Both the position numbers and the translations under genes were made by a program. From Candidatus Hydrogenedens sp. (lineage in GTDB: Bacteria > Hydrogenedentota > Hydrogenedentia > Hydrogenedentales > Hydrogenedentaceae): 64,000 nt of DNA. Under the pieces are notes generated by a model. The model was not told where the DNA came from. It saw only the letters and a program-made list of their open reading frames with translations, and made no database searches. This document shows, in pieces, positions 38,023 through 51,926 of this stretch (position 1 is its first letter; each line of letters begins with the position of its first letter). The stretch is taken from contig JBMFRC010000012.1 in NCBI GenBank assembly GCA_049968235.1, positions 1 to 64,000 on the forward strand. The letters run 5' to 3'.

Positions 38023-38084
38023 TTGTTCATAAATTCACAATTATACTTACAGGTAAGTATATAAATTTGTTTGTAAATTCACAA
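38023..38084 (+). promoter_or_regulatory. Two direct-repeat Rex-box-like operators (TTGTTCATAAATTCACAA and TTGTTTGTAAATTCACAA) flanking a perfect 7-2-7 palindrome TACTTACAGGTAAGTA
   Basis: The boxes are at 38023-38040 and 38067-38084. Each has a perfect TTCACAA right half-site and a degenerate left half-site, compared with the Rex consensus TTGTGAAnnnnTTCACAA. Box 1 abuts the -10 element. Confidence 0.55.
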
Positions 38085-38101: not shown

Positions 38102-38797
38102 ATGGTATCTGAGAAAACAGTAGAAAGATTAAGTTTATACCGCCGAATACTTCAACAATTGAGGGTCGAGAGTAAAGAAACTATAATGTCCCATGAACTT
38201 GCGAATATGTTACACATAAAGCCAGCACAGGTACGCAGGGATATTATGCAATTAGGTTATTCAGGAATACCTAATAGTGGTTATAGAATTCGACCTCTTT
38301 TAGAGAGTATTGCAAATTTTTTAGATTCCCCGTTGCCTCAGAGTGCTGTTTTAGTAGGTGTTGGACATTTAGGACTTGCGTTATTGGCTAACTTTGCAGG
38401 ACGATGGAGGCAATTAGCTATTCGTGCCTCTTTTGATAAAGACCCTGCAAAAGTAGGACAGACTTTTCATGGTTGTCGTTGTTATGCTATGTGTGATTTG
38501 CAAAAAGTAATTGCGGAGACAAAAAGTGTAGTAGGCATCCTGGCAATACCGGGTGAAAGTGCCCAATCTGTTTGTGACCTTCTTGTTCAGTCAGGTATTA
38601 GTGGCGTATTAAATTTTTCCCCATTGCGAATTAAAGTGCCTGATAATGTCTTTATAGAACATGTTGACCTTTCCGCTACGTTTGAAAAAGTTTCGTTCTT
38701 TGCAAGAAGAATGAAACATTATGCAGAAGAAGAAAAACGGAAAGTAGAAAATGAAATTACTGAGGGTGAATACGAAACATTAACAACCAATCAATAA
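38102..38797 (+). CDS. rex: Redox-sensing transcriptional repressor Rex
   Basis: The N-terminal winged helix reads TVERLSLYRRIL. The Rossmann fold reads AVLVGVGHLGLALL, and a C-terminal swap helix is present. Confidence 0.85.
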   Translation: MVSEKTVERLSLYRRILQQLRVESKETIMSHELANMLHIKPAQVRRDIMQLGYSGIPNSGYRIRPLLESIANFLDSPLPQSAVLVGVGHLGLALLANFAGRWRQLAIRASFDKDPAKVGQTFHGCRCYAMCDLQKVIAETKSVVGILAIPGESAQSVCDLLVQSGISGVLNFSPLRIKVPDNVFIEHVDLSATFEKVSFFARRMKHYAEEEKRKVENEITEGEYETLTTNQ

Positions 38798-38823: not shown

Positions 38824-39348
38824 ATGAATGAAGAATCAAAGCATGCGTGTATGGAAGAAGCAAGTGAAGAAGAACTGCTTGCTCGGCTTGATGAAGTAAT
38901 TGCAGAATATAAGGACAAGCCCGGTGCTCTTATTCCTGTTCTGCAGATTGCTCAGGCTATGTTTGGTTATCTACCCGAAAGTGCATTAAAAAAGATTAGT
39001 TTGGGACTGAACAAACCGTATAGTGAAGTTGCAGGTGTGGTAACATTTTACTCATTCTTTTCAACCCAGCCTCGTGGAAAACATATGATTCGTGTCTGTT
39101 TAGGAACTGCTTGTTATGTCCGTGGTGGCAAACAGGTTCTTTCTGCAATTAAGGATAAACTCCATATTGATGTTGGAGAGACCACGAAAGACCGTATGTT
39201 CTCTTTAGAGGTGGCTCGTTGTTTTGGTGCTTGTGGGCTTGCTCCTGCCATTATGGTGGATAACGATGTGCATCAACGGGTAAAACCTGCCCGAATTCAG
39301 GCTATTTTAGACCAGTATTTAGACAAAAACACAGAAAAAAATAAATAA
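38824..39348 (+). CDS. hndA: NuoE-like [2Fe-2S] subunit of an NAD(P)-linked [FeFe]-hydrogenase (HndA / HydC-like)
   Basis: It has a thioredoxin-like fold with 2Fe-2S Cys ligands (CLGTACYVRG...CFGACGLAP). It is ~174 aa, and its RBS is AGGAGA. Confidence 0.82.
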   Translation: MNEESKHACMEEASEEELLARLDEVIAEYKDKPGALIPVLQIAQAMFGYLPESALKKISLGLNKPYSEVAGVVTFYSFFSTQPRGKHMIRVCLGTACYVRGGKQVLSAIKDKLHIDVGETTKDRMFSLEVARCFGACGLAPAIMVDNDVHQRVKPARIQAILDQYLDKNTEKNK

Positions 39349-39370: not shown

Positions 39371-39742
39371 ATGTCAAATATTATTCATTCTCCAGAAGAC
39401 CTTAATGCTTTACGAGAAAAGGCAATTAAGGACATTGAGATTCGTAATTCACATAAAGATTTGGTGATTACTGTTCACATGGGAACATGTGGTATTGCTG
39501 CGGGTGCCAGAGAAGTATTAAAAAATATCATCTCTGAAATTTCTGCTATAGGTATAACCAATGTTACAGTCCGTCAATCTGGATGTGCAGGTCTCTGCGA
39601 CCGTGAACCCATGATTACGGTTACTCATAAATCCTCCGGTTCTGAATATCGTTATGGAAAATTAAACACGGAAAAGATACGAGAAATTGTGAAACAGCAT
39701 ATTGCAGAAGGTAAACCTGTGATGGAATATTTAATTTCCTGA
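39371..39742 (+). CDS. hndB: Small thioredoxin-like [2Fe-2S] ferredoxin subunit (HndB-like)
   Basis: The 2Fe-2S ligand motifs are HMGTCGIAAGA and SGCAGLCDREPM. It is 123 aa, and its RBS is AAGGAGA. Confidence 0.72.
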   Translation: MSNIIHSPEDLNALREKAIKDIEIRNSHKDLVITVHMGTCGIAAGAREVLKNIISEISAIGITNVTVRQSGCAGLCDREPMITVTHKSSGSEYRYGKLNTEKIREIVKQHIAEGKPVMEYLIS

Positions 39743-39825
39743 TGAAGAAATACAGGGTAAATTCGGATTCCCATAAAGTGGTTGAGATGAACATGTATAG
39801 CAAAATAAGAAAGAATGATATAGAA

Positions 39826-41271
39826 ATGAAAATGAACATATTACATCTATTTCTTATTTTATTTTTATGTTCATCCGCAACCTTTACTGAAATATCTGAT
39901 TGGGAAACCATCTCACTTTCGGATACAGGAGAAGCATTACAAAATCCCGGCATGGGATGGGTATTACATTTTTACGATAATGTTCCTGAAAATTATGGTT
40001 CTAAATTAGCCCCTTCAGATACTGTTGATGAATTCCCTGCCCTTTCAGTTATTTATTTGCGAATAGCATGGTCGTTTTTAGAACCTGAAGAAGGAAAGTA
40101 TAACTGGTCTATATTGGATACTCCTTCTCAACGATGGATTTCTAAAGGGAAACAAATTGCTTTGCGCATTACCTGTAGTGAAACTCCTATTCCATGGGCG
40201 ACACCAAAATGGGTTTATGAAGCAGGAGCCAAAGGTAATTTCTTCATTCCTACCCAGGGGATAAAAGAAAATGGGACACATTGGGAACCCGAATTTGATG
40301 ACCCTGTTTTCTTGGATAAGTTGGATAATTTTTTAGCAGTGTTAGCAAAGAGATATGATGAAAATCCGGAAATAGCCTTCATAGATATGGGTTCATTAGG
40401 AGTGTGGGGAGAAGGTCATGTATGGCATTCCACACAAAAACATATTTCGACGGAAACCATAAAAAAACACATTGATTTGCACATAAAGCACTTTAAAAAC
40501 ACAATAATTGCTCTAAATGATGACCTTATCACAAATGGGCAAAAATTGGATGTAATTCCCGAAGAGAAAAAAGAACTCCTCAATTATGCTATCAAAAATG
40601 GGTTAACACTTCGCGATGATAGTATTCTTGTTCAGGGTGGAGATAATGTATATTTTAGTGCAAGCCTTGCGGAATACTTCTGGCGAAATAGACCTATCAT
40701 TTTAGAATCTGAACATTATGGACCATCAAAGGCTGAAAGGCATTGGGGGGACGGAAGTAAATATTTACAGGCTGTAGAAGATTACCATGCAAGTTATACT
40801 TCTATTCATTGGTGGCCAAGGGAGTTTTTACAAGAAAACAAAGATTTGATAGATAAAATCAATCTTCGTTTGGGGTATCGTATTGTCCCTACCGAAGTTA
40901 AATGGCAAAAGACAGTAAAAATATCCGAGAAAAAATGGGATATATCCTACCGTTGGGCAAATAAAGGAGTGGCACCTTGTTATCGGGATGTATATCCCAT
41001 TATTACATGGAAAGATGAGAAAGGAGGAATTGTTGCTGTTTTTACAGATGAGACATTTAATCTCAAACAATTACCAATAGGGAAGCAGGATGAATTAAAA
41101 GAAATTGAGGTAAAAAAATCTTTTTTTATTCCTTTTTTATTGAAAGAAGGAAATTATACAGTATTCATTTCAGCGGGTTCTATTACGGGCACGCCTGAAA
41201 TTCAATTACCGTTAAACAACACAGACCATGAAAAAAGATATGTTATAGGTAAAGTTAATGTTGTTTTGTGA
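39826..41271 (+). CDS. Secreted clan GH-A TIM-barrel glycoside-hydrolase-like protein (GH42/GH35-like N-terminal signature). The tracked ORF begins at 39742; the start at 39826 gives a clean signal peptide.
   Basis: The signal peptide is MKMNILHLFLILFLCSSATF. NPGMGW is present. IAWSFLEPEEGKYNW resembles the GH42 signature AWSxxEPxEGxY. MGSLGVWGEGHVWHS is also present. Confidence 0.55.
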   Translation: MKMNILHLFLILFLCSSATFTEISDWETISLSDTGEALQNPGMGWVLHFYDNVPENYGSKLAPSDTVDEFPALSVIYLRIAWSFLEPEEGKYNWSILDTPSQRWISKGKQIALRITCSETPIPWATPKWVYEAGAKGNFFIPTQGIKENGTHWEPEFDDPVFLDKLDNFLAVLAKRYDENPEIAFIDMGSLGVWGEGHVWHSTQKHISTETIKKHIDLHIKHFKNTIIALNDDLITNGQKLDVIPEEKKELLNYAIKNGLTLRDDSILVQGGDNVYFSASLAEYFWRNRPIILESEHYGPSKAERHWGDGSKYLQAVEDYHASYTSIHWWPREFLQENKDLIDKINLRLGYRIVPTEVKWQKTVKISEKKWDISYRWANKGVAPCYRDVYPIITWKDEKGGIVAVFTDETFNLKQLPIGKQDELKEIEVKKSFFIPFLLKEGNYTVFISAGSITGTPEIQLPLNNTDHEKRYVIGKVNVVL

Positions 41272-41342
41272 AAAAAAATATAAAGATATAAATAAAAACT
41301 TCAGAAATGAAGCATACACAAGTTATGGAAAGGAGAAAAAAA

Positions 41343-44300
41343 ATGAGTCCATTTCGAAGTCATGTATTAATCTGTGCAGGTGCAGGATGCGTGGCATCAG
41401 GTTCGATGGAAGTAAGTTCCGCCTTTTCGGAGGCACTTGCCAAACATGGGCTAAATGAAGAAATTCAAGTAGTCCATACAGGATGTTTAGGACCCTGTGC
41501 TATTGGTCCCGTGGTCGTGATTTATCCAGATGCTATTTTTTATCAAGGTGTTAAAACAACAGATGTTGAAGATATTGTTGTTGAGCATCTGTTAAAAGGT
41601 CGGCCTGTTAGTCGCTTGAATTTCAAATCTACTACCACATCACAAATTATTCCTGCACTGCAGGAGATTGGTTTTTTCAAGCAACAGACAAAGATAGTTT
41701 TAAGGAACTGTGGTATTATAGACCCTACAAAAATTGAGGAGTATATTGCGAGAGATGGGTATCAGGCTTTAGCAAAAGTACTGACAAAAATGACTCCACA
41801 GCAGGTAGTAGAAGAAGTGAAAAAATCTGGACTTCGGGGAAGAGGTGGTGCAGGATTCCCAACAGGTATAAAGTGGGAGTTAACTCAAAAAGCCCACGGA
41901 GATAAGAAATATGTTCTTTGTAATGCTGATGAAGGTGACCCGGGCGCATTTATGGACAGAAGTGTTTTGGAAGGTGACCCCCATAGTGTTATTGAAGCTA
42001 TGATTATAGCAGGATATGCCATTGGTTCTGACCAGGGATATATTTATGTTCGAGCAGAATATCCTTTAGCGGTAGAGAGATTAAATATAGCGATAAAGCA
42101 AGCCAGAGAATATGGTTTGTTAGGTAAGAATATTATGGGAACGAATTTTAATTTCGACCTTGAAATACGAATGGGTTCAGGTGCTTTTGTGTGTGGAGAA
42201 GAAACCGCATTGATGCGTTCTATCGAAGGGAAACGCGGAGAACCCAGACCCCGTCCACCGTTCCCTGCATATAAAGGTTTATGGGAAAAACCCAGTTTAT
42301 TAAATAATGTAGAAACCTATGCAAACATCCCTGTAATTATATTAAAAGGTGCTGATTGGTTTGCTTCCATAGGAACAGGTAAAAGTAAAGGAACAAAAGT
42401 GTTTGCCTTAGCAGGTGCTGTAAACAACACAGGATTGGTCGAAATTCCGATTGGTACACCATTAGGTGAAATTATTTATGATATTGGCGGTGGAATTCCG
42501 CGAGGCAAACAATTTAAGGCAGCGCAAATTGGAGGTCCTTCCGGCGGTTGTATTCCAAAACAACATCTGAATGTGCCGGTAGATTACGAGTCATTACAGG
42601 AATTAGGAGCGATTATGGGTTCCGGTGGATTAATTGTTATGGATGAAGACACATGTATGGTCGATATGGCTCGTTTCTTCCTTGACTTTGTTCAGGATGA
42701 GTCATGTGGAAAATGTGTCCCATGCCGGGTCGGAACGAAAAGAATGTTGGAAATTGTGACAAGGATTTGTGAGGGTCGGGGAGAAGAAGGCGATATTGAA
42801 AAACTTATTGAATTAGGACAACAGATTAAAGATGCATCGTTATGTGGATTAGGGCAGACAGCTCCAAACCCTGTTCTTTCTGCAATACGGCACTTCCGTG
42901 ATGAATTTGAAATTCATATTCGTGAACATAAATGTCCGGCGGGTGTCTGTCCATCTCTTGTTCGTGCTCCTTGTATGAGTGCTTGCCCGGCAAATGTTTA
43001 CATTCCGGGTTTTGTCTCATTAATATCTGAAAAACGATATGCGGAAGCACTTCGTGTGCATCGTGACCAGAACCCCTTTGCATCTGTATGTGCCCGTGTG
43101 TGTTTCCATACTTGTGAGGACAAATGTAGAAGAGCTACTCTGGATGAAGCGGTATCCATACGCGGATTGAAGCGATTTATGGTAGAGCAAGAAGTTACAA
43201 TACAACTACCTGAAATTCGTGAAAATGAACAAAATCTTCGCAAAAAGGTGGCTATTATAGGAGCAGGTCCTGCAGGTCTAACCTGTGCTTATTTCCTTGC
43301 ACGATTAGGCTATCAACCCCGTGTTTTTGAATCTGCACCCAGGCCCGGCGGTATGTTAGTTCAAACAATTCCCGCTTATCGGTTACCCCGAGAAGAATTG
43401 GCTCGAGAAATTCGTATGATAGAAAGAATGGGCGTTGTCATAGAAACTGAAAAAGCCTTAGGTCGTGATTTTACATTACAAAGCCTTCGTGATGATGGAT
43501 ATGAGGCTATTTTTCTCGGAATAGGTGCTCCATCAGGTCAAAAATTGAGAATTCCAGGCGAAGATGCGGATGGCGTTGTCGAAGCCATAGACTTCCTTCG
43601 TGAATACAATCTCCGTGGTTCTGTTCCTGTAGGGAAAAATGTTGTTATTATAGGAGGTGGTAATGCAGCTATTGATGCGGCAAGAACTGCCATTCGTTTA
43701 GGAGCAAAAAAAGCAACGATTCTTTACCGCAGAACAAGAGAAGAGATGCCTGCGTATAAAGAAGAGATCGAAGAAGCAGTTAATGAAGGTGTTATTTTAA
43801 AAATGTTAGTAACTCCACTGGAGATTTTGACAGAAAACGGAAAAGTTGTTGGTGTAAAATGTCAACACATGTGGTTAGGAGAATATGACCGTTCCGGTAG
43901 AAGAAGACCTGAAGCCAAAAAGGGTGAAGAACCCTTTGTTGAAGAAGCAGACCAGGTTATTGCAGCAATAGGGCAAACTGTTGATTTAAAACGTTACCTG
44001 GATGGATTAAATGTTAAGTTAACACCTTCTGGTTTCTTGTGGGTAGACCAATTATATGGTCAGACCTCTATTGAATGGTTATTTGCAGGTGGTGATATTA
44101 GTTCAGGTCCTTCTTCCGTAGCAGAAGCAATCGGTGCTGGTGAAAGAGCTGCAGTTGGAATTGATAAGTATCTTACTGGAGAAGAACATGCTTTCTGGCG
44201 CGAACCCTATATGGTAGATACAGAATTTGACCCAGATTCCGACCCGGTAGATTTCCCAAGAGCAAAAATGAAACTTTTACCTGTTGAAAAGAGGGTACAC

Positions 44301-44414
44301 AACTTTAATGAAGTTGAAATCCCGTTTACGGAAACATTAGCGGTAAGAGAGGCACGCCGTTGCTTACGTTGTGATTATCGTGAAACAAAAATAAGTTTAA
44401 ATACACAACAATAA
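41343..44414 (+). CDS. hndC: NuoF-like flavoprotein subunit (HndC-like) fused to a C-terminal GltD/NfnB-like NAD(P)H oxidoreductase. The tracked ORF starts at 41307; the RBS-supported start is 41343.
   Basis: The N-terminal thioredoxin-like 2Fe-2S domain reads LICAGAGCVASG...CLGPCAIGP. The NuoF core carries GRGGAGFPTGIKW and ESCGKCVPCRVGT. A 2x[4Fe-4S] region follows, then the GltD-like part: CARVCFHTCEDKCRR, FAD GxGxxG (AIIGAGPAGLTCAYFLA) and NAD(P) GxGxxA (VVIIGGGNAAIDAAR). AAGGAG lies 7 nt before the 41343 ATG. Confidence 0.85.
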   Translation: MSPFRSHVLICAGAGCVASGSMEVSSAFSEALAKHGLNEEIQVVHTGCLGPCAIGPVVVIYPDAIFYQGVKTTDVEDIVVEHLLKGRPVSRLNFKSTTTSQIIPALQEIGFFKQQTKIVLRNCGIIDPTKIEEYIARDGYQALAKVLTKMTPQQVVEEVKKSGLRGRGGAGFPTGIKWELTQKAHGDKKYVLCNADEGDPGAFMDRSVLEGDPHSVIEAMIIAGYAIGSDQGYIYVRAEYPLAVERLNIAIKQAREYGLLGKNIMGTNFNFDLEIRMGSGAFVCGEETALMRSIEGKRGEPRPRPPFPAYKGLWEKPSLLNNVETYANIPVIILKGADWFASIGTGKSKGTKVFALAGAVNNTGLVEIPIGTPLGEIIYDIGGGIPRGKQFKAAQIGGPSGGCIPKQHLNVPVDYESLQELGAIMGSGGLIVMDEDTCMVDMARFFLDFVQDESCGKCVPCRVGTKRMLEIVTRICEGRGEEGDIEKLIELGQQIKDASLCGLGQTAPNPVLSAIRHFRDEFEIHIREHKCPAGVCPSLVRAPCMSACPANVYIPGFVSLISEKRYAEALRVHRDQNPFASVCARVCFHTCEDKCRRATLDEAVSIRGLKRFMVEQEVTIQLPEIRENEQNLRKKVAIIGAGPAGLTCAYFLARLGYQPRVFESAPRPGGMLVQTIPAYRLPREELAREIRMIERMGVVIETEKALGRDFTLQSLRDDGYEAIFLGIGAPSGQKLRIPGEDADGVVEAIDFLREYNLRGSVPVGKNVVIIGGGNAAIDAARTAIRLGAKKATILYRRTREEMPAYKEEIEEAVNEGVILKMLVTPLEILTENGKVVGVKCQHMWLGEYDRSGRRRPEAKKGEEPFVEEADQVIAAIGQTVDLKRYLDGLNVKLTPSGFLWVDQLYGQTSIEWLFAGGDISSGPSSVAEAIGAGERAAVGIDKYLTGEEHAFWREPYMVDTEFDPDSDPVDFPRAKMKLLPVEKRVHNFNEVEIPFTETLAVREARRCLRCDYRETKISLNTQQ

Positions 44415-44431: not shown

Positions 44432-46204
44432 ATGCCAAAATTAACTATAGATGGAATTCCCGTAGAAGTTCCGGAAGGAACAACAATACTTCAAGCGGCA
44501 AAGCAAATAGGATTAAAAATACCGACACTTTGTTATCTTGAAGAAGTTCAAGCCATCGGTGCCTGTCGTGTTTGCGTTGTTGAAGTTGAAGGAGCACGAA
44601 CTTTGGTCGCTTCTTGTGTTGCTCCTGTTGCGGAAGGAATGAAAGTCCATACAAATTCAAAAAGAGCCCGTGAGGCACGAAAAACAGTTGTAGAATTGTT
44701 ACTATCCGACCATGATGGCGATTGCCAGATTTGTGTTCGAAATGAAGATTGTGAACTTCAGGAATTGGCACGAACACTTGGGATAAAGGAAATTCGCTAT
44801 CAAGGTGAGAAGAGAAAACGGATTGTGGATGAAAGCACTCCCGCTGTTGTTCGTGATACATCGAAATGTGTCTTATGTAGAAGATGTATAACGGTTTGCA
44901 ATGAGGTTCAGGGTGTTGGCGGACTGTTCCCACAAAATCGTGGCTTTGAAACGGTAATAGGTCCCGCATTTTGTAGTGATTTGGATGATGTCGTATGTGT
45001 TCAGTGTGGTCAATGTAGTGCGGTTTGTCCTGTGGGTGCTATTGTAGAAAGAGACCAGATTGCGGATGTCTTTTCTGCATTAGATGACCCGACAAAAACA
45101 GTCGTTGTCCAGACAGCCCCTGCAATTCGTGCCGCATTGGGAGAATGTTTTGGTTTACCACCCGGAACTTTAGTAACAGGGAAGATGGTTACCGCACTTC
45201 GTAGACTGGGTTTCCATGCCGTTTTTGATACTAACTTTGCCGCTGACCTTTGTATTATGGAAGAAGGTACAGAACTGCTAACTCGATTGAAGAAAAAACT
45301 GGTAGATGGGGAGAATATTGCTCTTCCTATGTTTACCAGTTGTTCTCCGGGGTGGATTAAGTTTTTAGAACATTTCTACCCGGATATGATTCCAAATGTA
45401 TCTACATGCAAATCCCCACAGCAAATGTTTGGTGCTATAGCAAAGACCTATTATTCCAAGAAAATTGGTAAGAAACCCGAAGATATTGTTGTTGTTTCTA
45501 TTATGCCCTGTACAGCGAAGAAATATGAACATCAGCGTCCCGAGATGAACAGTTCCGGTGTTCGTGATGTGGACTATGTGCTTACAACGCGTGAATTGGG
45601 TCGGATGATAAAACAGGCAGGCATTGATTTTGTAAATCTACCCGATGACAAGCAAGACTCACCATTAGGACTATCCTCTGGTGCTGCGGATATTTTTGCG
45701 AATACCGGGGGTGTTATGGAAGCGGCAATTCGAACTGTTTATGAAATAGTAACAGGACGCGAATTACCATTCGATGGACTTCATGTTGCTCCTATCGAAG
45801 GATTAGAAGGAATCAAGGAAGCCTCCTTGAAGATAGAAAAATGTGTGCCTGAATGGTCTTTCTTAGAAGGGGCTACCGTAAATGTTGCTGTGGCTCATGG
45901 ATTGGGTAATGCCAGAGCATTAATAGAGCGAGTTCGCTCAGGTGAAAAGGCGTATCACTTTATAGAAATTATGACCTGTCCCGGTGGATGTATTGGTGGA
46001 GGAGGACAACCTCGCTTTACAGATAATTCAGTTCGTCTTGCTCGTATTCAGGCCATATACAAAGAGGATGAAGGGAAACAACTTCGTAAGTCCCATGTAA
46101 ATCCTGACATACAAAAATTGTATAAGGAATTTTTAGGACATCCGAATAGTGAAGTTTCACATCATCTATTACATACGCATTACAATCCGAGAACAAAAGT
46201 ATAA
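44432..46204 (+). CDS. hndD: [FeFe]-hydrogenase catalytic subunit, M3 architecture (HndD/HydA-like), with non-canonical L1 motif TSCSPGW
   Basis: It has an N-terminal 2Fe-2S domain, a His-ligated 4Fe-4S (HDGDCQICVRNEDC) and two ferredoxin-like 4Fe-4S clusters. The H-cluster motifs are L2 MPCTAKKYE and L3 EIMTCPGGCIGG. The L1 motif reads FTSCSPGW. Confidence 0.88.
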   Translation: MPKLTIDGIPVEVPEGTTILQAAKQIGLKIPTLCYLEEVQAIGACRVCVVEVEGARTLVASCVAPVAEGMKVHTNSKRAREARKTVVELLLSDHDGDCQICVRNEDCELQELARTLGIKEIRYQGEKRKRIVDESTPAVVRDTSKCVLCRRCITVCNEVQGVGGLFPQNRGFETVIGPAFCSDLDDVVCVQCGQCSAVCPVGAIVERDQIADVFSALDDPTKTVVVQTAPAIRAALGECFGLPPGTLVTGKMVTALRRLGFHAVFDTNFAADLCIMEEGTELLTRLKKKLVDGENIALPMFTSCSPGWIKFLEHFYPDMIPNVSTCKSPQQMFGAIAKTYYSKKIGKKPEDIVVVSIMPCTAKKYEHQRPEMNSSGVRDVDYVLTTRELGRMIKQAGIDFVNLPDDKQDSPLGLSSGAADIFANTGGVMEAAIRTVYEIVTGRELPFDGLHVAPIEGLEGIKEASLKIEKCVPEWSFLEGATVNVAVAHGLGNARALIERVRSGEKAYHFIEIMTCPGGCIGGGGQPRFTDNSVRLARIQAIYKEDEGKQLRKSHVNPDIQKLYKEFLGHPNSEVSHHLLHTHYNPRTKV

Positions 46205-46329: not shown

Positions 46330-46725
46330 ATGGAAAATAAAATTATAATGGTCGTTGATGATGATATTGATGTTCAGGATTTCTGTAAAATTGTATTAGG
46401 AAGAGAGGATTATCAGGTTATAACATTTTCCAACTCAGAGAGTGCACTCGAATATTTATCGTCGAACACTCCCTCTGTAATTATTACCGATTTAATGATG
46501 GGTGGAATTGATGAGGGTGTCCAATTTGTTAATAAGATTAGAGGATTCGATAATGAGAAGGCAAAAATTCCAATTATAATGATTACAGGCATAAATTCAA
46601 AATTAGGATATGACATCACTCCCCGTTCCGATGAAGAAAAAAAACAAATGAAAATCGATGAATTTATATCAAAACCTTTAAATCCAAAACAGTTAATAAC
46701 AGCACTAAAAAAAGTAATCAAATAG
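46330..46725 (+). CDS. Stand-alone response-regulator receiver (REC) domain protein
   Basis: The acidic pocket reads VVDDD. The phospho-acceptor Asp lies in VIITDLMM, and a conserved Lys is present. It is 131 aa with no output domain. Confidence 0.8.
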   Translation: MENKIIMVVDDDIDVQDFCKIVLGREDYQVITFSNSESALEYLSSNTPSVIITDLMMGGIDEGVQFVNKIRGFDNEKAKIPIIMITGINSKLGYDITPRSDEEKKQMKIDEFISKPLNPKQLITALKKVIK

Positions 46726-46777: not shown

Positions 46778-48175
46778 ATGAGTTCAAATGTAGAAACTGT
46801 TCCTATTAATGAGGAATTTATTTTTGATACTTTAAAAAATAGTGTCAAGAAAGATGCGGTTTACATCAAAGAAATTCTTGCAAAAGCCCTTGAATTAAAG
46901 GGATTAGATGCGACAGAAGTAGCCACGCTTGCAACAATAAGTGACCCTGACCTGTTAAAAGAACTTTTCGATACAGCCCGAAAAGTCAAAGAGGAGATTT
47001 ACGGTAAACGATTAGTTCTTTTTGCCCCACTTTATGTATCAAATCTTTGCAAGAATGAATGCTTATATTGTGCTTTCCGTAAAAGTAACAAGATGGTTCG
47101 TAGAAAAGCATTGACACAAGAAGAAGTCCGTAGAGAGGTTGAAACATTGGTTGACCAGGGGCATAAACGCATTCTATTAGTGGCAGGCGAGTCCTATCCT
47201 TCCGAAGGATTTGATTATGTTATTCATTGTATCGAAACAATATATAGTGTAAAGCGGGATAGGGGAGAGATACGACGCGTAAATGTGAATATAGCACCCT
47301 TATCGTTAGAGGAATTTAAAAGGCTGAAATCAGCAAAAATTGGGACATATCAGTTATTTCAAGAAACATACCACAGAGAAACATACCAAAAAGTCCATGT
47401 AGGTGGACTTAAAAAGGATTTTGACTGGAGAATTACCGCTATGGACCGTGCTATGAAAGCTGGCATTGATGATGTGGGTGTTGGCGTTCTTTTTGGCTTA
47501 TTTGATTGGAGATTTGAAATACTTGCTTTAATGCAACATATTAAACATTTAGAAGATACCTTCGGTGTAGGATGTCACACGATAAGTGTACCTCGCCTTG
47601 AACCTGCTATAGGTTCAGACCTGGCTTCACATCCCCCTTATCCGGTATCAGACCTTGATTTCAGAAAAATTGTAGCTATACTAAGACTTGCTGTGCCCTA
47701 TACAGGAATAATAATGTCCACTCGTGAAACTCCCAATATACGAAGAGAAACCTTTGCACTGGGTGTATCACAAATATCAGCAGGCAGTAGAACGAATCCA
47801 GGTGGGTATACAGGCAGTGAAGAAGAGGATATGAGCCAATTCTCATTAGGTGACCATCGCAGTCTGGATGAGGTTATTCGTGATGTTACAAAATTAGGTT
47901 ATATCCCATCCTTCTGCACGGCTTGTTATCGTTTAGGCAGAACAGGTGCTGACTTTATGGACCTTGCCAAGCCGGGTCTTATCAAGAACCATTGTGAAGT
48001 TAATGCTTTAAGCACTTTTGCTGAATATCTGGAAGATTATGCATCCTCCGAAACAAAACAAATAGGTTGGGCAAAGATTGAGGAAATTTTAAATACAATG
48101 CCTGAAGTTCGGAAAAAACGTACCGAAGGGATGTTGGCTCGTGTAAAAGCCGGTGAACGGGATGTATATGTGTAA
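46778..48175 (+). CDS. hydG: [FeFe]-hydrogenase maturase HydG (radical SAM tyrosine lyase, ThiH-like)
   Basis: The radical SAM motif is CKNECLYC. The ~465 aa length and a C-terminal auxiliary-cluster Cys motif (FCTACYRLGRTG) fit HydG. It sits in the hyd cluster. Confidence 0.85.
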   Translation: MSSNVETVPINEEFIFDTLKNSVKKDAVYIKEILAKALELKGLDATEVATLATISDPDLLKELFDTARKVKEEIYGKRLVLFAPLYVSNLCKNECLYCAFRKSNKMVRRKALTQEEVRREVETLVDQGHKRILLVAGESYPSEGFDYVIHCIETIYSVKRDRGEIRRVNVNIAPLSLEEFKRLKSAKIGTYQLFQETYHRETYQKVHVGGLKKDFDWRITAMDRAMKAGIDDVGVGVLFGLFDWRFEILALMQHIKHLEDTFGVGCHTISVPRLEPAIGSDLASHPPYPVSDLDFRKIVAILRLAVPYTGIIMSTRETPNIRRETFALGVSQISAGSRTNPGGYTGSEEEDMSQFSLGDHRSLDEVIRDVTKLGYIPSFCTACYRLGRTGADFMDLAKPGLIKNHCEVNALSTFAEYLEDYASSETKQIGWAKIEEILNTMPEVRKKRTEGMLARVKAGERDVYV

Positions 48176-48180
48176 ATCTT

Positions 48181-49602
48181 ATGTCAGACTACCGAATTGA
48201 AACCGACTTATTGGGTGAAAAAAAGATACCTGCGGATGTCTATTGGGGTATACATACTGCTCGTGCAGTAGAAAATTTTCCTGTTTCCCGACTCTCGGTT
48301 CATTCAGAATTAATCCAATCTTATGGAATTGTAAAACTTGCATGTGCAAAAATAAATTATTCGTTAGGATACTTATTACATCCTCCTGATAAATCATCTG
48401 CCATATTTAACGCTTGCGAAGAAGTAGCAATTGGTAAATGGAATGACCATATTATCGTGGATGCTCTACAGGGTGGAGCAGGAACCAGCACAAATATGAA
48501 TATTAATGAGGTTATTGCCAACCGTGCCCTAGAAATATTGGGCTTACCACGGGCAAAATATGACATTATTTCCCCATTAGATGATATAAATCTTCACCAA
48601 TCGACTAACGATACTTATCCTACCGCCCTGAAACTTGCTACGATAAGGATGTTAAGAAAATTAGAATCAGAAATTATTCTTCTTTTAGAGACATTTCAAA
48701 CACTTGAAAAACAATTTTCGGACATAGTAAAAATTGGAAGGACAGAACTTCAAGATGCAACGCCTATTACATTAGGTAGGGAGATGGGTGCTTATGCAGA
48801 TGCCCTAGTAAGAGACCGTTGGCGTATCTATAAGTGTGAAGAAAGATTGCGAGTAGTTAATTTAGGAGGCACCGCAATAGGAACAGGTTTAGGAGCACCA
48901 AGGGATTATATTTTCCGTGTTGTAGATAATCTGCGAGAGTTATCAAATATCGGTTTTTCGCGAGCAGAAAATTTAGTAGATGCAACTCAAAATCTCGATG
49001 TATTTGGGGAAGTATCAGGTATCATTCGTTCCTATGCCATAACGCTTAATAAAATAGCCAATGATTTGAGACTAATGTCATCCGGACCCGAAGCAGGTCT
49101 CCGTGAAATTCAACTTCCACAATTACAAGCGGGTTCATCTATTATGCCAGGGAAAGTGAACCCTGTTTTGCCTGAAGCGGTATGCCAGGTTGCAATGCTA
49201 ACATTTGGATTCGACCAGATTATCACATATGGCTGTTCTTCCGGAAACCTTGAACTAAATCCTTTTGTCCCTTTGATTGCTCATTGTTTGTTAAATATGA
49301 TTGAAATGTTAACAAATGTAACAAAATTATTTACGGAAAAATGTATTAAAGGAATTTCGCCGAACCGAGAGGTTTGTGTTTCCTATGTGAATAATTCTAC
49401 AGCAACTCTAACCGCACTTATACAGAAGATAGGATATGAAAAAGCATGTATGATTGCTAAAAAAACAAGTAATTTGAAAAAGAGTATTCGAGAAATTGTA
49501 TTGGAAGAAGGAGTTTTGACTCCTGAAGAATTTGATACTCTTTTAAGTCCTGAGTCCGTTTGTAAATTAGGATTTGTTGACACCAGTAATGAGATAGATT
49601 AG
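48181..49602 (+). CDS. aspA: Aspartate ammonia-lyase-like protein (fumarase/aspartase superfamily)
   Basis: The N-terminus IETDLLGEKKIPADVYWGIHTARAVENF is aspartase-like. The superfamily signature GSSIMPGKVNP is present. Confidence 0.78.
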   Translation: MSDYRIETDLLGEKKIPADVYWGIHTARAVENFPVSRLSVHSELIQSYGIVKLACAKINYSLGYLLHPPDKSSAIFNACEEVAIGKWNDHIIVDALQGGAGTSTNMNINEVIANRALEILGLPRAKYDIISPLDDINLHQSTNDTYPTALKLATIRMLRKLESEIILLLETFQTLEKQFSDIVKIGRTELQDATPITLGREMGAYADALVRDRWRIYKCEERLRVVNLGGTAIGTGLGAPRDYIFRVVDNLRELSNIGFSRAENLVDATQNLDVFGEVSGIIRSYAITLNKIANDLRLMSSGPEAGLREIQLPQLQAGSSIMPGKVNPVLPEAVCQVAMLTFGFDQIITYGCSSGNLELNPFVPLIAHCLLNMIEMLTNVTKLFTEKCIKGISPNREVCVSYVNNSTATLTALIQKIGYEKACMIAKKTSNLKKSIREIVLEEGVLTPEEFDTLLSPESVCKLGFVDTSNEID

Positions 49603-49611
49603 GAAGGAAAT

Positions 49612-50865
49612 ATGCTTAGAGCATCACCAAAATCATTTCGACTGCATATTGGTTTTTTTGGTAGAAGGAATGTTGGAAAATCCAGTTTACTTAATGCAAT
49701 TACACGACAAAATGTCTCAATTGTTTCTGAATCCGCAGGAACCACAACAGACCCCGTGGAAAAACCTATGGAACTACTACCTTTAGGTCCTGTTCTATTC
49801 ATTGATACTGCGGGCATTGATGATATAGGTGCTTTAGGAGAATTACGGATACAAAAAACAAGACAAATTTTTGACCGAACCGATGTTGCGGTTGTTGTTA
49901 CAGAAGCCGGTATATGGGGAGAATTTGAGGAAGGCTTGTGTAATGAGTTTAAGTCAAGAAATGTTCCTATCGTAGTTGTGTTTAACAAAGTGGACCTGCA
50001 TGAACCTGATGAAACATTGTGTAATAGGTTGAAAAATGAGAAAATTCTATATGTAAAGACTATTGCATCAAAGCAGGATGGTATTAGTGAACTCAAAAAT
50101 GCACTTATTTCTTCAGCCCCCGATGATTTTATAAATAGTCCAACGATTTTAGGAGATTTGGTAGCTCCTGGTGAATTGGCTGTGCTTGTCGTGCCTATAG
50201 ATAAAGAAGCACCTAAAGGAAGACTTATTATGCCTCAGGTTCAATCCATCCGTGATTTGTTAGATAACGATGCTATGTGTGTTGTCGTAAAAGAAAGAGA
50301 ACTCCGGCGAATTTTAGAACAATTAAAAATTCTTCCAAAGATTGTTGTTACTGATTCCCAGGCATTCTTAAAAGTCGTCGCAGATACTCCTTCCAATGTA
50401 TGGGTTACAAGTTTTTCAATATTATTTTCAAGATTCCGCGGAGATTTAATTACACAGGTGGAAGGAACACTTGCTATCGAATCATTGAAACCCGGAGATA
50501 AAATACTTATTGCAGAATCATGCTCGCATCACCCTATTGCCGATGATATAGGAAGGGTTAAAATACCAAGATGGTTAATGCAATATATCGGTGGAAAATT
50601 AGAATTTGATACTGTTCAGGGAAATGATTTTTTTTCAGATTTAACAAAATATAAAATGGTTATACACTGTGGAGCATGCACACTCAATCGCCGTGCTATG
50701 TTAAATCGTATTATGCATTGCAAAAAACAAGGGATACCAATAAGTAATTACGGGTTAACTATAGCCTATTCTTTAGGTATCCTCGAAAGGGCATTAGAAC
50801 CATTCCCATCCGCATTGGAAATATATAAACAGAAAACAACAAAAAAGTTGCAAAACATTAAATAA
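49612..50865 (+). CDS. hydF: [FeFe]-hydrogenase maturation GTPase/scaffold HydF
   Basis: The P-loop is GRRNVGKSSLLN with NKVD alongside. The C-terminal Fe-S motif is CSHHP...HCGACT (CxHx~50HCxxC). Confidence 0.85.
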   Translation: MLRASPKSFRLHIGFFGRRNVGKSSLLNAITRQNVSIVSESAGTTTDPVEKPMELLPLGPVLFIDTAGIDDIGALGELRIQKTRQIFDRTDVAVVVTEAGIWGEFEEGLCNEFKSRNVPIVVVFNKVDLHEPDETLCNRLKNEKILYVKTIASKQDGISELKNALISSAPDDFINSPTILGDLVAPGELAVLVVPIDKEAPKGRLIMPQVQSIRDLLDNDAMCVVVKERELRRILEQLKILPKIVVTDSQAFLKVVADTPSNVWVTSFSILFSRFRGDLITQVEGTLAIESLKPGDKILIAESCSHHPIADDIGRVKIPRWLMQYIGGKLEFDTVQGNDFFSDLTKYKMVIHCGACTLNRRAMLNRIMHCKKQGIPISNYGLTIAYSLGILERALEPFPSALEIYKQKTTKKLQNIK

Positions 50866-50873
50866 AATAAAAC

Positions 50874-51926
50874 ATGGATAAAAAAAATATTATTAATTGG
50901 CTTCGTGAAAAAAACGAAGATAAATTAAACGAACTATGGGAATTGGCGGATTCTATCCGCAGTAAATATGTAGGAGAAGAGGTGCATCTTCGAGGTTTGA
51001 TAGAAATATCAAACTATTGCAAAAAAAACTGTCTATACTGTGGAATACGAATTTCTAATAGAAAATTAACCCGATATAGAATGGAAGACAGCGAGATTTT
51101 GGAATGTGTGGAATTTGCCAAAAGAAATGGCTATGGAACAATAGTCCTTCAATCCGGCGAAGACCCCGATTTTACAAAAGAAAAAATCGCCGAATTAATT
51201 AGAAAAATAAAAGAAAATGCAAATGTGGCTATTACATTAAGTTTAGGAGAGCAGGAAAAACACACATTAGAATTATGGAAATCTGCCGGAGCCAATCGTT
51301 ATCTTCTTCGTTTTGAAACCTCAGATGAAATCCTATTTAAAAGAATCCATTCGTCAGAACAAGCAAAAAGTTTAGAGAATAGAATTAAACAACTAAAAAT
51401 ACTTAAACAATTAGGCTACGAAGCAGGAAGTGGGATAATGATTGGAATACCCTATCAAACTTATGAAAGCATCGCTAATGATATCCTACTTTTCAAACAA
51501 TTAGACCTTGATATGATAGGAATAGGACCATACATTCCTCATCCCGATACACCTTTAGGACAGGAATATCTTAATAAATATAAAAAAGATGATGAAAAAT
51601 TTGTCCCAAACACAGAATTAATGACATATAAAGTCCTTGCATTAACCCGAATTATATGTCCAACCGTAAACATTCCTGCCACCACTGCCCTTGCAACTGT
51701 GAATACACGAGAAGGTCGCATTTTAGCCCTGAAGAGGGGAGCCAATGTTATCATGCCGAATCTCACTCCACCAAAATATAAAAAATTGTATGAAATTTAT
51801 CCAGGTAAATCGTCTGCTGATGAACCTCCAGAAATTATTCATCAAAGTATAATGAAGATTATAGAAAAGGCAGGAAGAAAAGTAGGAACAGGGATGGGAA
51901 ATCGCAAAAAAATCATAGATATTTAA
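50874..51926 (+). CDS. hydE: [FeFe]-hydrogenase maturase HydE (radical SAM, BioB-like)
   Basis: The radical SAM motif is CKKNCLYC. It is ~350 aa, and the TIM-barrel radical SAM core resembles BioB/HydE. Confidence 0.85.
   Translation: MDKKNIINWLREKNEDKLNELWELADSIRSKYVGEEVHLRGLIEISNYCKKNCLYCGIRISNRKLTRYRMEDSEILECVEFAKRNGYGTIVLQSGEDPDFTKEKIAELIRKIKENANVAITLSLGEQEKHTLELWKSAGANRYLLRFETSDEILFKRIHSSEQAKSLENRIKQLKILKQLGYEAGSGIMIGIPYQTYESIANDILLFKQLDLDMIGIGPYIPHPDTPLGQEYLNKYKKDDEKFVPNTELMTYKVLALTRIICPTVNIPATTALATVNTREGRILALKRGANVIMPNLTPPKYKKLYEIYPGKSSADEPPEIIHQSIMKIIEKAGRKVGTGMGNRKKIIDI

What the first reader, a model, noticed from the sequence alone, without database searches (positions are those of the whole stretch)
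45321..45347. [FeFe]-hydrogenase L1 H-cluster motif reads TSCSPGW instead of canonical TSCCPxW
The catalytic subunit keeps perfect L2 (MPCTAKKYE) and L3 (EIMTCPGGCIGG) motifs, but the L1 motif is FTSCSPGW. From memory, in the C. pasteurianum CpI numbering the first Cys of TSCCP (C299) is the proton-relay residue and the second (C300) ligates the [4Fe-4S]H subcluster. A plain register alignment puts the Ser at the C300-equivalent position. That would imply Ser ligation of the H-cluster cubane or an otherwise altered active site. If the register differs instead, it would be a proton-pathway Cys to Ser variant like those discussed for sensory or slow hydrogenases. Either way it predicts altered catalytic or sensing behaviour. 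The DNA is TGT TCT, one nucleotide away from TGT TGT.
Basis: partly seen in the sequence, partly recalled or inferred. Interest (0 to 1): 0.6.

Follow-up and report, generated by a model that had tools for sequence, protein, structure and literature searches.

The report
Known serine variant of hydrogenase active-site motif
The hydrogen-producing enzyme in this window really does carry a serine where textbook enzymes have an iron-binding cysteine. This is an inherited, widespread and already published trait, present in a working enzyme of known structure, and is neither an error nor a new kind of active site.

Summary
The 590-aa HydA/BfuA (44432-46204, +) reads F-T-S-C304-S305-P-G-W (45332-45355), with Ser codon TCT at 45344-45346. 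The L2 and L3 motifs are canonical.

An ungapped alignment to CpI puts C304 on the proton-relay Cys299 and S305 on the [4Fe-4S]H ligand Cys300.

It is not a sequencing error and not an anomaly:
- 112 of the 120 closest protein clusters carry TSCSP.
- 72 of 81 HydA genes in 80 related genome loci carry TSCSP, using all six Ser codons.
- About 21% of the diverse representatives with a readable L1 motif carry it.

The best PDB match is Acetobacterium woodii HydA1 (7Q4V, 53% identity), which has the same TSCSPGW. Its paper states that Ser301 replaces the Cys ligand and has no apparent effect on the infrared signature of an active enzyme. A 2024 paper on Hydrogenedentota, the phylum this window most likely comes from, already reports Ser as common at this position. 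It also describes this operon type ("sub-type I" BfuABCD, in which BfuB is fused to a GltD-like FAD/NAD(P) module).

The prediction of altered catalysis or sensing has no support. One small new lead: the residue before the Cys499-equivalent ligand (T515) seems to co-vary with the serine.

The parts
44432..46204 (+). hydA/bfuA: 590-aa catalytic subunit of a group A (A3/'A6') [FeFe]-hydrogenase, M3 architecture
   Evidence: Pfam finds Fer2_4, NADH-G_4Fe-4S_3, Fer4, Fe_hyd_lg_C (330 bits) and Fe_hyd_SSU. NCBIfam NF040763 'NADH-dependent [FeFe] hydrogenase, group A6' scores 907 bits against a cutoff of 765. The best PDB hit is 7q4v_A, E=2.5e-194.
45332..45355 (+). L1/P1 motif F301-T-S-C304-S305-P-G-W308 (TSCSPGW variant)
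   Evidence: The alignment to CpI PMFTSCCPGW is ungapped.
45341..45343 (+). Cys304 codon (TGT), equivalent to CpI Cys299, the proton-relay Cys next to the adt bridge
   Evidence: Cys is kept here in 88 of 89 Ser-type sequences.
45344..45346 (+). Ser305 codon (TCT), equivalent to CpI Cys300, T. kivui Cys299 and A. woodii Ser301, the fourth ligand position of the [4Fe-4S]H subcluster
45503..45529 (+). L2/P2 motif MPCTAKKYE (Cys360 = CpI Cys355; Lys363 = CpI Lys358)
45965..46012 (+). L3/P3 motif EIMTCPGGCIGGGGQP (Cys516 = CpI Cys499; Cys520 = CpI Cys503, the bridging Cys)
45974..45976 (+). Thr515 codon (CpI Ala498 position), which appears to co-vary with Ser305
   Evidence: Ser-type sequences have T50/A16/C10/G10 here; Cys-type have A84/S11/T4. 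Of 10 inferred Ser gains, 5 change this site on the same branch, against 13 of 187 background branches.
41307..44414 (+). hydB/bfuB fused to a GltD/NfnB-like module (1035 aa). It holds an N-terminal 2Fe-2S thioredoxin-like domain, a NuoF FMN/NAD core, then Fer4_20 (DPD_II) and an FAD/NAD(P) domain in place of the usual C-terminal 2x[4Fe-4S] domain.
   Evidence: Pfam and NCBIfam nuoF_fam plus NAD(P)-binding/GltD models. Motifs GAGPAG (652) and GGGNAA (783) are present. This matches 'sub-type I BfuB' of PMC11406978.
38824..39348 (+). hydC/bfuC, NuoE-like 2Fe-2S subunit (174 aa)
   Evidence: Pfam 2Fe-2S_thioredx, 174 bits. NuoE/HoxE models hit.
39371..39742 (+). bfuD/hydD-like small 2Fe-2S thioredoxin-like ferredoxin (123 aa)
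   Evidence: Weak Pfam and NCBIfam hits. It is conserved at this position in many related loci.
39742..41271 (+). 509-aa ORF with weak DUF4832/GH42-like similarity, inserted between bfuD and bfuB; function unknown
   Evidence: It is present only in the four closest loci, L006, L044, L047 and L066.
38102..38797 (+). rex, the redox-sensing (NADH/NAD+) repressor, first gene of the cluster
   Evidence: NCBIfam Rex, 192 bits against a cutoff of 126. It is conserved upstream in related loci.
46330..46725 (+). stand-alone response-regulator receiver protein (131 aa)
   Evidence: Pfam Response_reg. It is also present in L006 and L066.
46778..48175 (+). hydG, H-cluster radical-SAM maturase
   Evidence: TIGR03955, 540 bits.
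48181..49602 (+). aspartate ammonia-lyase-like gene lying between the maturase genes
   Evidence: NF008909, 629 bits. The same position is kept in related loci.
49612..50865 (+). hydF, H-cluster scaffold GTPase
   Evidence: Pfam HydF_tetramer, HydF_dimer and MMR_HSR1.
50874..51926 (+). hydE, H-cluster radical-SAM maturase
   Evidence: TIGR03956, 331 bits.

Best explanation
The gene encodes the catalytic subunit (HydA/BfuA) of a multimeric, NAD(P)H-linked group A [FeFe]-hydrogenase of the 'sub-type I BfuABCD' kind, most likely from a Hydrogenedentota bacterium.

Its H-cluster site is canonical except that the fourth ligand position of the [4Fe-4S]H subcluster (CpI Cys300) is a serine, Ser305. 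The adjacent proton-relay cysteine is kept (Cys304 = CpI Cys299). So are the other three cluster cysteines, the proton-transfer pathway and the CN-binding lysine.

By homology to A. woodii HydA1, the cubane is held by three Cys plus Ser305 (inferred, probably as an O-donor), and the enzyme is a normally maturated, catalytically competent hydrogenase (inferred).

The serine is a selectively maintained lineage trait. It has been gained and reverted repeatedly within this branch of group A. At most it tunes the cluster subtly; it does not create a different chemistry or a sensor.
For: Register and conservation of the rest of the site:
- Alignments to CpI, T. kivui and A. woodii are ungapped.
- The window protein keeps C304, C360, C516, C520, E278, S324, E281, R285, K363, M358 and M514.

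Same motif in a solved, active enzyme:
- 7q4v_A reads ITSCSPGWIKF.
[quoted passage not shown] Lineage trait:
- 112/120 closest clusters carry TSCSP.
- 72/81 HydA genes in loci from many phyla carry it, with all six Ser codons.
- Relatives at 91-96% identity carry TCT or TCC.
- 25 of about 116 diverse 50%-identity representatives with a readable L1 motif carry it.
- An NJ tree with parsimony infers about 10 gains and about 8 reversions.

Functional context:
- hydG, hydF and hydE lie directly downstream, and hydC, bfuD and hydB::gltD directly upstream.
- The operon is conserved in about 65 loci.
- NCBIfam A6 scores 907 bits.

Against: - No enzyme of this sub-type (BfuB::GltD) has been characterised biochemically. 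Activity, maturation and Ser-O ligation are inferred from a homologue that is 53% identical.
- The A. woodii maps are cryo-EM. I did not retrieve their resolution, and serinate ligation there is a modelled assignment, not a spectroscopic proof.
- The engineered equivalent in Chlamydomonas HydA1 (C115S in that paper's numbering) lost most of the [4Fe-4S] cluster and all activity (PMC5855289). Ser is therefore tolerated only in some protein contexts, and this context is untested.
Confidence: 0.85

Rival explanations
1. The TCT codon is a sequencing or assembly error for TGT, and the real protein has canonical TSCCP.
For: TCT is one substitution from TGT. Raw reads are not available to me.
Against: Independent assemblies at 96%, 94%, 91% and 91% identity (L066, L006, L044, L047) all encode Ser here with TCT or TCC. 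So do 112/120 closest clusters and 72/81 HydA genes in related loci, which use all six Ser codons.
Confidence: 0.01
2. The register is shifted. Cys304 would be the cubane ligand and the proton-relay Cys would be missing, giving a slow or sensory (HydS-like) enzyme.
For: Putative sensory group C/D enzymes are described as lacking the proton-relay Cys (my own knowledge, not checked here).
Against: There is no gap anywhere near the motif in phmmer or MAFFT alignments. The invariant flanks P-M-F-T-S and P-x-W are in register with CpI, T. kivui and A. woodii. The residue numbers derived from the alignment reproduce the paper's Ser301Aw and Cys299Tk exactly. The architecture is M3 with no PAS or kinase domain. 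The protein passes the A6 model, not a group C model.
Confidence: 0.03
3. Ser305 is not a ligand. The [4Fe-4S]H cubane would be three-Cys coordinated with water/hydroxide or another residue at the fourth iron, and Ser would only hydrogen-bond.
For: In CrHydA1 the Ala, Asp and Ser substitutions at this position all destabilised the cluster. The authors discuss solvent or neighbouring-Cys coordination, and noted in 2017 that natural Ser ligation of [4Fe-4S] clusters was unknown (PMC5855289). Ten Ser-type sequences carry an extra Cys just before the Cys499-equivalent ('MCC'), which could be a substitute ligand in those proteins. The A. woodii assignment rests on cryo-EM modelling.
Against: The A. 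woodii authors modelled Ser301 as the ligand. Ser, not Ala or Gly, is maintained at this position, which argues that the hydroxyl matters: across 192 aligned sequences the position is 89 Ser, 101 Cys, 1 Ala and 1 gap. The window protein has Thr, not Cys, at position 515.
Confidence: 0.1
4. The protein is a degenerate, non-catalytic hydrogenase homologue that only transfers electrons.
For: Some TSCSPGW-bearing homologues in Melainabacteria also lost an L3 Cys (PMC3787301). A few 50%-identity representatives lack the motifs.
Against: All other H-cluster ligands and proton-pathway residues are intact here. HydG, HydF and HydE are encoded immediately downstream in the same orientation. The window contains no other H-cluster protein for these maturases to serve, although I cannot see the rest of the genome.
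Confidence: 0.02

Closest known systems
Acetobacterium woodii HydA1 of the electron-bifurcating HydABC(D) complex (PDB 7Q4V/7Q4W/8A5E; Katsyv et al. 2023, PMC10021017)
   Same: It is the best PDB match, E=2.5e-194, at 53% identity over 567 aligned residues. It has the same M3 architecture and an identical TSCSPGWIKF motif, with Ser301 at the cubane-ligand position. L2 is identical (MPCTAKKYE).
   Different: A. woodii HydB has the ordinary C-terminal 2x[4Fe-4S] domain, not a GltD module. A. woodii has Ala, not Thr, before the Cys499-equivalent. In my NJ tree it falls outside the large Ser-rich clade that holds the window protein.
Hydrogenedentota 'sub-type I' BfuABC(D) [FeFe]-hydrogenases (mSystems 2024, PMC11406978)
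   Same: The likely phylum is the same: the closest named locus, L047, is Candidatus Hydrogenedens sp. at 91% identity. BfuB carries DPD_II/Fer4_20 plus an FAD/NAD(P) domain in place of the B3/B4 clusters. BfuD is present. Ser is common at the fifth P1 position.
   Different: Nothing substantive differs; this looks like a member. The window and its four closest loci carry an extra 509-aa ORF between bfuD and bfuB. I did not find it mentioned in the parts of the paper I read.
Clostridium pasteurianum CpI and Thermoanaerobacter kivui HydA (8A6T), canonical TSCCP enzymes
   Same: Fold, F-domain clusters, L2, L3, the proton pathway and the proton-relay Cys are all shared.
   Different: They have Cys at the fourth cubane-ligand position (CpI Cys300, Tk Cys299), where the window protein has Ser305.
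Chlamydomonas HydA1 C115S variant, equivalent to CpI C300S (Kertess et al. 2017, PMC5855289)
   Same: The same Cys-to-Ser exchange at the second Cys of TSCCP.
   Different: The engineered variant bound very little [4Fe-4S] and had under 1 unit of activity. Natural Ser-type enzymes such as A. woodii HydA1 are active, which implies that context or co-adaptation matters.
Stn / NfnABC (Bfu-type transhydrogenases)
   Same: They use NuoE-like and NuoF-like subunits together with a GltD/NfnB-like NADP(H)/FAD module (PMC7483475).
   Different: In Stn the GltD module is fused to the NuoG-like subunit, and no H-cluster domain is described for it in the passages I read. Here GltD is fused to the C-terminus of HydB, and a complete H-cluster subunit is present.

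Membership tests
Group A [FeFe]-hydrogenase catalytic subunit (HydA/BfuA; NCBIfam NF040763 'group A6') | H-domain plus small-subunit-like C-terminus, scoring above the curated cutoff | tested here: met
   Fe_hyd_lg_C scores 330 bits and Fe_hyd_SSU 90 bits. NF040763 scores 907 bits against 765, and TIGR02512 scores 533 against 406.
Group A [FeFe]-hydrogenase catalytic subunit (HydA/BfuA; NCBIfam NF040763 'group A6') | Four Cys ligands of [4Fe-4S]H (CpI C300, C355, C499, C503) | tested here: not met
   Three of the four are Cys (C360, C516, C520). The C300 position is Ser305. This deviation is shared by about 21% of diverse relatives with a readable L1 motif and by the active A. woodii enzyme. 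It therefore does not exclude membership in practice.
Group A [FeFe]-hydrogenase catalytic subunit (HydA/BfuA; NCBIfam NF040763 'group A6') | Proton-relay Cys and proton-transfer pathway (CpI C299, E279, S319, E282, R286) and CN-binding Lys358 | tested here: met
   The window has C304, E278, S324, E281, R285 and K363.
Group A [FeFe]-hydrogenase catalytic subunit (HydA/BfuA; NCBIfam NF040763 'group A6') | Dedicated maturases HydE, HydF and HydG available | tested here: met
   hydG is at 46778-48175, hydF at 49612-50865 and hydE at 50874-51926.
Group A [FeFe]-hydrogenase catalytic subunit (HydA/BfuA; NCBIfam NF040763 'group A6') | H2 oxidation/evolution activity and a 2Fe subcluster | not testable with these tools
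   Requires biochemistry.
Ser-ligated H-cluster subclass typified by A. woodii HydA1 | Ser at the CpI-Cys300 position, with the proton-relay Cys retained | tested here: met
   TSC304-S305-PGW aligns without gaps to A. woodii TSC300-S301-PGW.
Ser-ligated H-cluster subclass typified by A. woodii HydA1 | Ser oxygen actually coordinates the cubane iron | not testable with these tools
   It is only modelled in the A. woodii cryo-EM structure. The tools here do not return model coordinates and do not model cofactors.
Hydrogenedentota sub-type I BfuABCD | BfuB with DPD_II (Fer4_20) plus an FAD/NAD(P) domain replacing the B3/B4 2x[4Fe-4S] domain | tested here: met
   The 1035-aa protein has Complex1_51K, SLBB, NADH_4Fe-4S, Fer4_20 (547-629) and Pyr_redox_2 (646-945).
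Hydrogenedentota sub-type I BfuABCD | bfuC-(bfuD)-bfuB-bfuA gene cluster with an M3a-type BfuA | tested here: met
   The window order is rex-hydC-bfuD-(509-aa ORF)-hydB::gltD-hydA. The same order occurs in about 65 loci.
Hydrogenedentota sub-type I BfuABCD | Phylogenetic placement inside the published sub-type I clade | not tested
   The published sequences were not retrieved. Placement is inferred from domain architecture and from 78-91% identity to Hydrogenedentota MAG loci.
Sensory [FeFe]-hydrogenases (group C/D, HydS) | Proton-relay Cys replaced, and an extra signalling domain (PAS or kinase-linked) | tested here: not met
   Cys304 is retained and no PAS or kinase domain is found. These defining features come from my own knowledge and from the group C description in PMC11406978.
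Degenerate HydA-like proteins (for example Melainabacteria ACD20_9246 copies) | Loss of an L2 or L3 cysteine in addition to the L1 change | tested here: not met
   L2 and L3 are intact. Those proteins replaced an L3 Cys with Ile.

The most novel reading that the evidence does not exclude
Ser305 may not be a neutral swap. It could be one half of a co-adapted pair with the residue preceding the Cys499-equivalent ligand (Thr515 here; Thr, Cys or Gly in most Ser-type enzymes; Ala in most Cys-type enzymes).

Together these residues would set the potential or protonation behaviour of the [4Fe-4S]H subcluster in NAD(P)H-coupled Bfu hydrogenases. That would explain why a simple C-to-S exchange destroys CrHydA1 while natural Ser-type enzymes work. 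In the 'MCC' variants the extra Cys might take over as the fourth ligand.

Separately, the BfuB::GltD complex could be a hydrogenase with two nucleotide or flavin sites, a mechanism that is still uncharacterised.
Probability: 0.2. Interest if true: 0.5.

Novelty: already known. Interest (0 to 1): 0.18.

Why it matters
It matters little as a discovery. The Cys-to-Ser exchange at the cubane ligand of the H-cluster is documented as follows:
- It occurs in about a fifth of the putative [FeFe]-hydrogenase sequences surveyed (Winkler 2013, as cited in PMC5855289).
- It has been seen in the A. woodii cryo-EM structure, with normal spectroscopy.
- It has been reported for this very phylum and operon type.

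The useful outcome is negative. This gene should be annotated as a normal catalytic BfuA, not flagged as an error, a sensor or a dead enzyme.

Two questions remain open and are experimentally tractable:
- Why is natural Ser tolerated when the engineered CrHydA1 variant is not? The possible Thr515 co-variation bears on this.
- What does the uncharacterised BfuB::GltD (sub-type I) complex couple H2 to?

Tried and rejected
- A full-text search for 'TSCSP' gave 29 papers, of which only one was relevant (Melainabacteria). Two searches failed on bracket syntax and one paper reading 'find' call failed on a term shorter than 3 characters.
- A mutual-information scan of all columns against Ser/Cys was dominated by clade signal, because most Ser-type sequences belong to one clade. 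I discarded it as evidence, except that it pointed to position 515. I then re-tested that position on tree branches. The uncorrected Fisher p is 7e-4, which does not survive correction for about 375 columns, so I report it only as suggestive.
- I tested whether Ser is tied to the GltD fusion, and it is not. TSCSP also occurs with ordinary HydB (L069, L070, L076, L078, L080 and A. woodii). TSCCP occurs with the fusion in L024, L025 and L028.
- A Rex operator search with a wrong 6-nt spacer found nothing meaningful. With the 4-nt spacer, the total number of matches in the window is not above chance. Two of those matches do sit directly upstream of rex.
- I did not run AlphaFold or Foldseek. The tools return no coordinates and no cofactors, so the model could not test ligation, and an experimental structure of a 53%-identical protein with the same motif exists.
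- The 509-aa ORF gave only marginal GH42/DUF4832 hits and was left unassigned.
Full report
**1. The observation**

The ORF at 44432-46204 (+) encodes a 590-aa protein. Residues 301-308 read F-T-S-C-S-P-G-W, nt 45332-45355. Cys304 is TGT (45341-45343) and Ser305 is TCT (45344-45346). No other H-cluster protein is encoded in the window.

**2. What the protein is**

- Pfam finds the full M3 architecture: Fer2_4, the His-ligated 4Fe-4S domain, two ferredoxin-type clusters, Fe_hyd_lg_C and Fe_hyd_SSU.
- NCBIfam places it above the curated cutoff of NF040763, "NADH-dependent [FeFe] hydrogenase, group A6" (907 bits against 765).
- The best solved relatives are the HydA subunits of the bifurcating HydABC complexes of A. 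woodii (7Q4V, E=2.5e-194) and T. kivui (8A6T), followed by CpI.
- Identities over the MAFFT alignment are 53%, 53% and 42%.

**3. Register**

The phmmer alignments to all three structures are ungapped through L1. A 192-sequence MAFFT alignment agrees. The CpI row ends "...PMFTSCCP 301", so Cys304 corresponds to CpI Cys299, the proton relay, and Ser305 corresponds to CpI Cys300, the [4Fe-4S]H ligand.

The residue numbers I derive for the other two chains, Ser301 in A. woodii and Cys299 in T. kivui, are exactly those used in the structure paper. This confirms the register independently.

Every other functional residue I checked is canonical:
- Cluster ligands: Cys360, Cys516, Cys520.
- Proton pathway: Glu278, Ser324, Glu281, Arg285.
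- H-cluster environment: Lys363, Met358, Met514.
- F-domain ligands.

The second option (a proton-pathway variant of the sensory type) is rejected.

**4. Error or trait?**

- Of the 120 closest 90%-identity clusters (76-94% identical), 112 have TSCSP and 7 have TSCCPAW.
- A scan of one genome per GTDB species returned 80 loci from Hydrogenedentota, Planctomycetota, Lentisphaerota, Verrucomicrobiota, Spirochaetota, Bacteroidota, Bacillota and other phyla.
- 72 of the 81 HydA genes in those loci have TSCSP.
- The Ser is encoded by all six codons: TCG 39, TCT 10, AGC 8, TCC 7, TCA 6, AGT 2.
- The four nearest loci (96, 94, 91 and 91% identity) have TCT or TCC, with other synonymous differences around the codon.

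This excludes a base-call error and shows long-term selection for Ser.

In an exhaustive HMMER search of 1.84 billion 50%-identity representatives, I took the best 150. Of these, 25 read TSCSP and about 91 read TSCCP among those with a readable motif, which is about 21%. A neighbour-joining tree of the H-domain with Fitch parsimony gives a Cys root and a large Ser-rich clade of 81 sequences (91% Ser) that contains the window protein. It also gives roughly ten Cys-to-Ser gains and eight reversions. A. woodii HydA1 falls outside the big clade. The tree is rough, being NJ on Kimura distances with midpoint rooting. The qualitative point, that the two states interconvert repeatedly, is robust to that.

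**5. What is already published**

a. Katsyv et al. [quoted passage not shown] Both enzymes are described as active, typical, bidirectional hydrogenases.

b. Kertess et al. 2017 (PMC5855289) mutated the equivalent Cys of Chlamydomonas HydA1. In their numbering this is C115, and its neighbour C114 is the relay Cys.
- C115A, C115D and C115S bound little [4Fe-4S] and had under 1 unit of activity.
[quoted passage not shown] 2013. My 21% agrees.

c. Di Rienzi et al. 2013 (PMC3787301) noted TSCSPGW in Melainabacteria hydrogenases.

d. [quoted passage not shown]

The finding is therefore already known, including for the lineage this window most probably comes from.

**6. Surroundings**

The gene order is:
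- rex (38102-38797)
- hydC/bfuC (38824-39348)
- a 123-aa 2Fe-2S protein, bfuD (39371-39742)
- a 509-aa ORF of unknown function (39742-41271)
- a 1035-aa HydB (41307-44414)
- hydA (44432-46204)
- a receiver-domain protein (46330-46725)
- hydG (46778-48175), an aspartase-like gene (48181-49602), hydF (49612-50865) and hydE (50874-51926)

In the 1035-aa HydB, the usual C-terminal 2x[4Fe-4S] domain is replaced by Fer4_20 (DPD_II) plus a GltD/NfnB-like FAD/NAD(P) domain. It carries GAGPAG at 652 and GGGNAA at 783; the latter is a GxGxxA motif, which the Stn paper associates with NADP(H).

The hydC-(bfuD)-hydB::gltD-hydA arrangement recurs in about 65 of the 80 loci. It is the "sub-type I BfuABC(D)" of PMC11406978, whose authors propose a possible second, FAD-based bifurcation centre. 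A Vallitalea genome paper noted the same enlarged beta subunit in 2018.

Ser is not tied to this fusion. TSCSP occurs with ordinary HydB (A. woodii, L069, L070, L076, L078, L080). TSCCP occurs with the fusion in three Verrucomicrobiota/Kiritimatiellota loci.

**7. How it most likely works**

*Shown:*
- The sequence has Ser at the fourth cubane-ligand position, and everything else is canonical.
- The trait is conserved.
- Maturases and Bfu partner subunits are co-encoded.

*Inferred by homology to A. woodii HydA1:*
- The cubane is bound by Cys360, Cys516, Cys520 and Ser305.
- The 2Fe subcluster is installed by HydEFG.
- Cys304 relays protons.
- Electrons pass through the F-domain clusters to HydB/HydC.

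*Inferred from general iron-sulfur chemistry (my own knowledge):* an O-donor in place of a thiolate usually shifts the cluster potential modestly. The A. woodii data show no visible effect on the CO/CN bands. I therefore expect subtle tuning at most, not a sensor and not a different chemistry.

What the GltD module adds is unknown. It could be NADP(H) coupling or a second bifurcating flavin.

**8. A small new lead**

The residue just before the Cys499-equivalent ligand (Thr515 here, Ala498 in CpI) differs by type:

| Type | Residues at position 515 |
|---|---|
| Ser-type | T 50, A 16, C 10, G 10, V 1 |
| Cys-type | A 84, S 11, T 4, C 1, G 1 |

- On the tree, 5 of 10 inferred Ser gains change this site on the same branch (to C, G, G, T, C).
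- On branches without a Ser gain, 13 of 187 change it. Fisher p is 7e-4 over all branches and 3.5e-3 on terminal branches only.
- Position 515 is the only slowly evolving column with that behaviour.
- Five of seven Cys sequences nested in the Ser-rich clade have Ala there.
- The p-value does not survive correction for about 375 columns, the tree is crude, and A. woodii itself is Ser plus Ala. This is a hypothesis, not a result.

If real, it could explain why the single C-to-S exchange fails in CrHydA1.

**9. Verdict**

The register and Ser-at-ligand reading are right. The 'anomaly', 'error' and 'altered catalysis or sensing' readings are not supported.
- Novelty: already known.
- Interest is low. 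The gene should simply be annotated as the catalytic subunit of a sub-type I Bfu-type [FeFe]-hydrogenase with the common Ser variant of motif L1.

Noticed in passing
window 39742-41271 (+): A 509-aa ORF sits inside the hydrogenase operon between bfuD and hydB::gltD, and its start overlaps the bfuD stop. It has only marginal DUF4832 and GH42 (beta-galactosidase-like) similarity and no NCBIfam hit. Among the 80 related loci it is present only in the four closest (L006, L044, L047, L066).
   Followed up: partly
window 45974-45976 (Thr515); alignment of 192 HydA sequences: The residue preceding the Cys499-equivalent cubane ligand appears to co-vary with Ser/Cys at position 305. It is Thr, Cys or Gly in Ser-type sequences and Ala in Cys-type. 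Five of ten inferred Ser gains change it on the same branch. The signal is suggestive only and is not corrected for multiple testing.
   Followed up: partly
P0126, P0129, P0175, L076 and others: Ten Ser-type HydA sequences have 'E-x-M-C-C-P/E-G-G-C', an extra Cys directly before the Cys499-equivalent. Only one of 101 Cys-type sequences does. This Cys might act as a substitute thiolate ligand in those proteins.
   Followed up: no
window 38023-38040 and 38067-38084 (+): Two Rex-box-like sites lie within 80 bp upstream of the rex start codon: TTGTTCATAAATTCACAA and TTGTTTGTAAATTCACAA, with 2 and 3 mismatches to TTGTGAA-N4-TTCACAA. This suggests NADH-responsive autoregulation of the operon. The total number of such matches in the window is not above chance (6 against 8.2 expected).
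   Followed up: partly
window 41307-44414 (+): The HydB::GltD fusion ('sub-type I BfuB') is conserved next to this HydA clade in about 65 loci from many phyla. As far as I could find, it has not been characterised biochemically. Its GGGNAA motif suggests an NADP(H) site.
   Followed up: partly
window 27893-30715 (+): A 940-aa protein is packed with EF-hand calcium-binding domains (EF-hand_7, 201 bits, and many EF-hand hits). This is unusual for a bacterium.
   Followed up: no
P0121 (top hit): A 4122-aa predicted protein contains seven tandem H-domains with a period of 444 aa. Each has L1 FTSCCA(S/G)W (Pro replaced by Ala), L2 MPCTVKKTE (MPCTVKKVE in the seventh) and an intact L3. It is either a giant multi-hydrogenase or an assembly or gene-call artefact.
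   Followed up: partly
window 48181-49602 (+): An aspartate ammonia-lyase-like gene lies between hydG and hydF, and the same arrangement is kept in related loci (L006, L008, L038, L044, L066, L068, L079). I have not explained this recurrent association with the H-cluster maturases.
   Followed up: no
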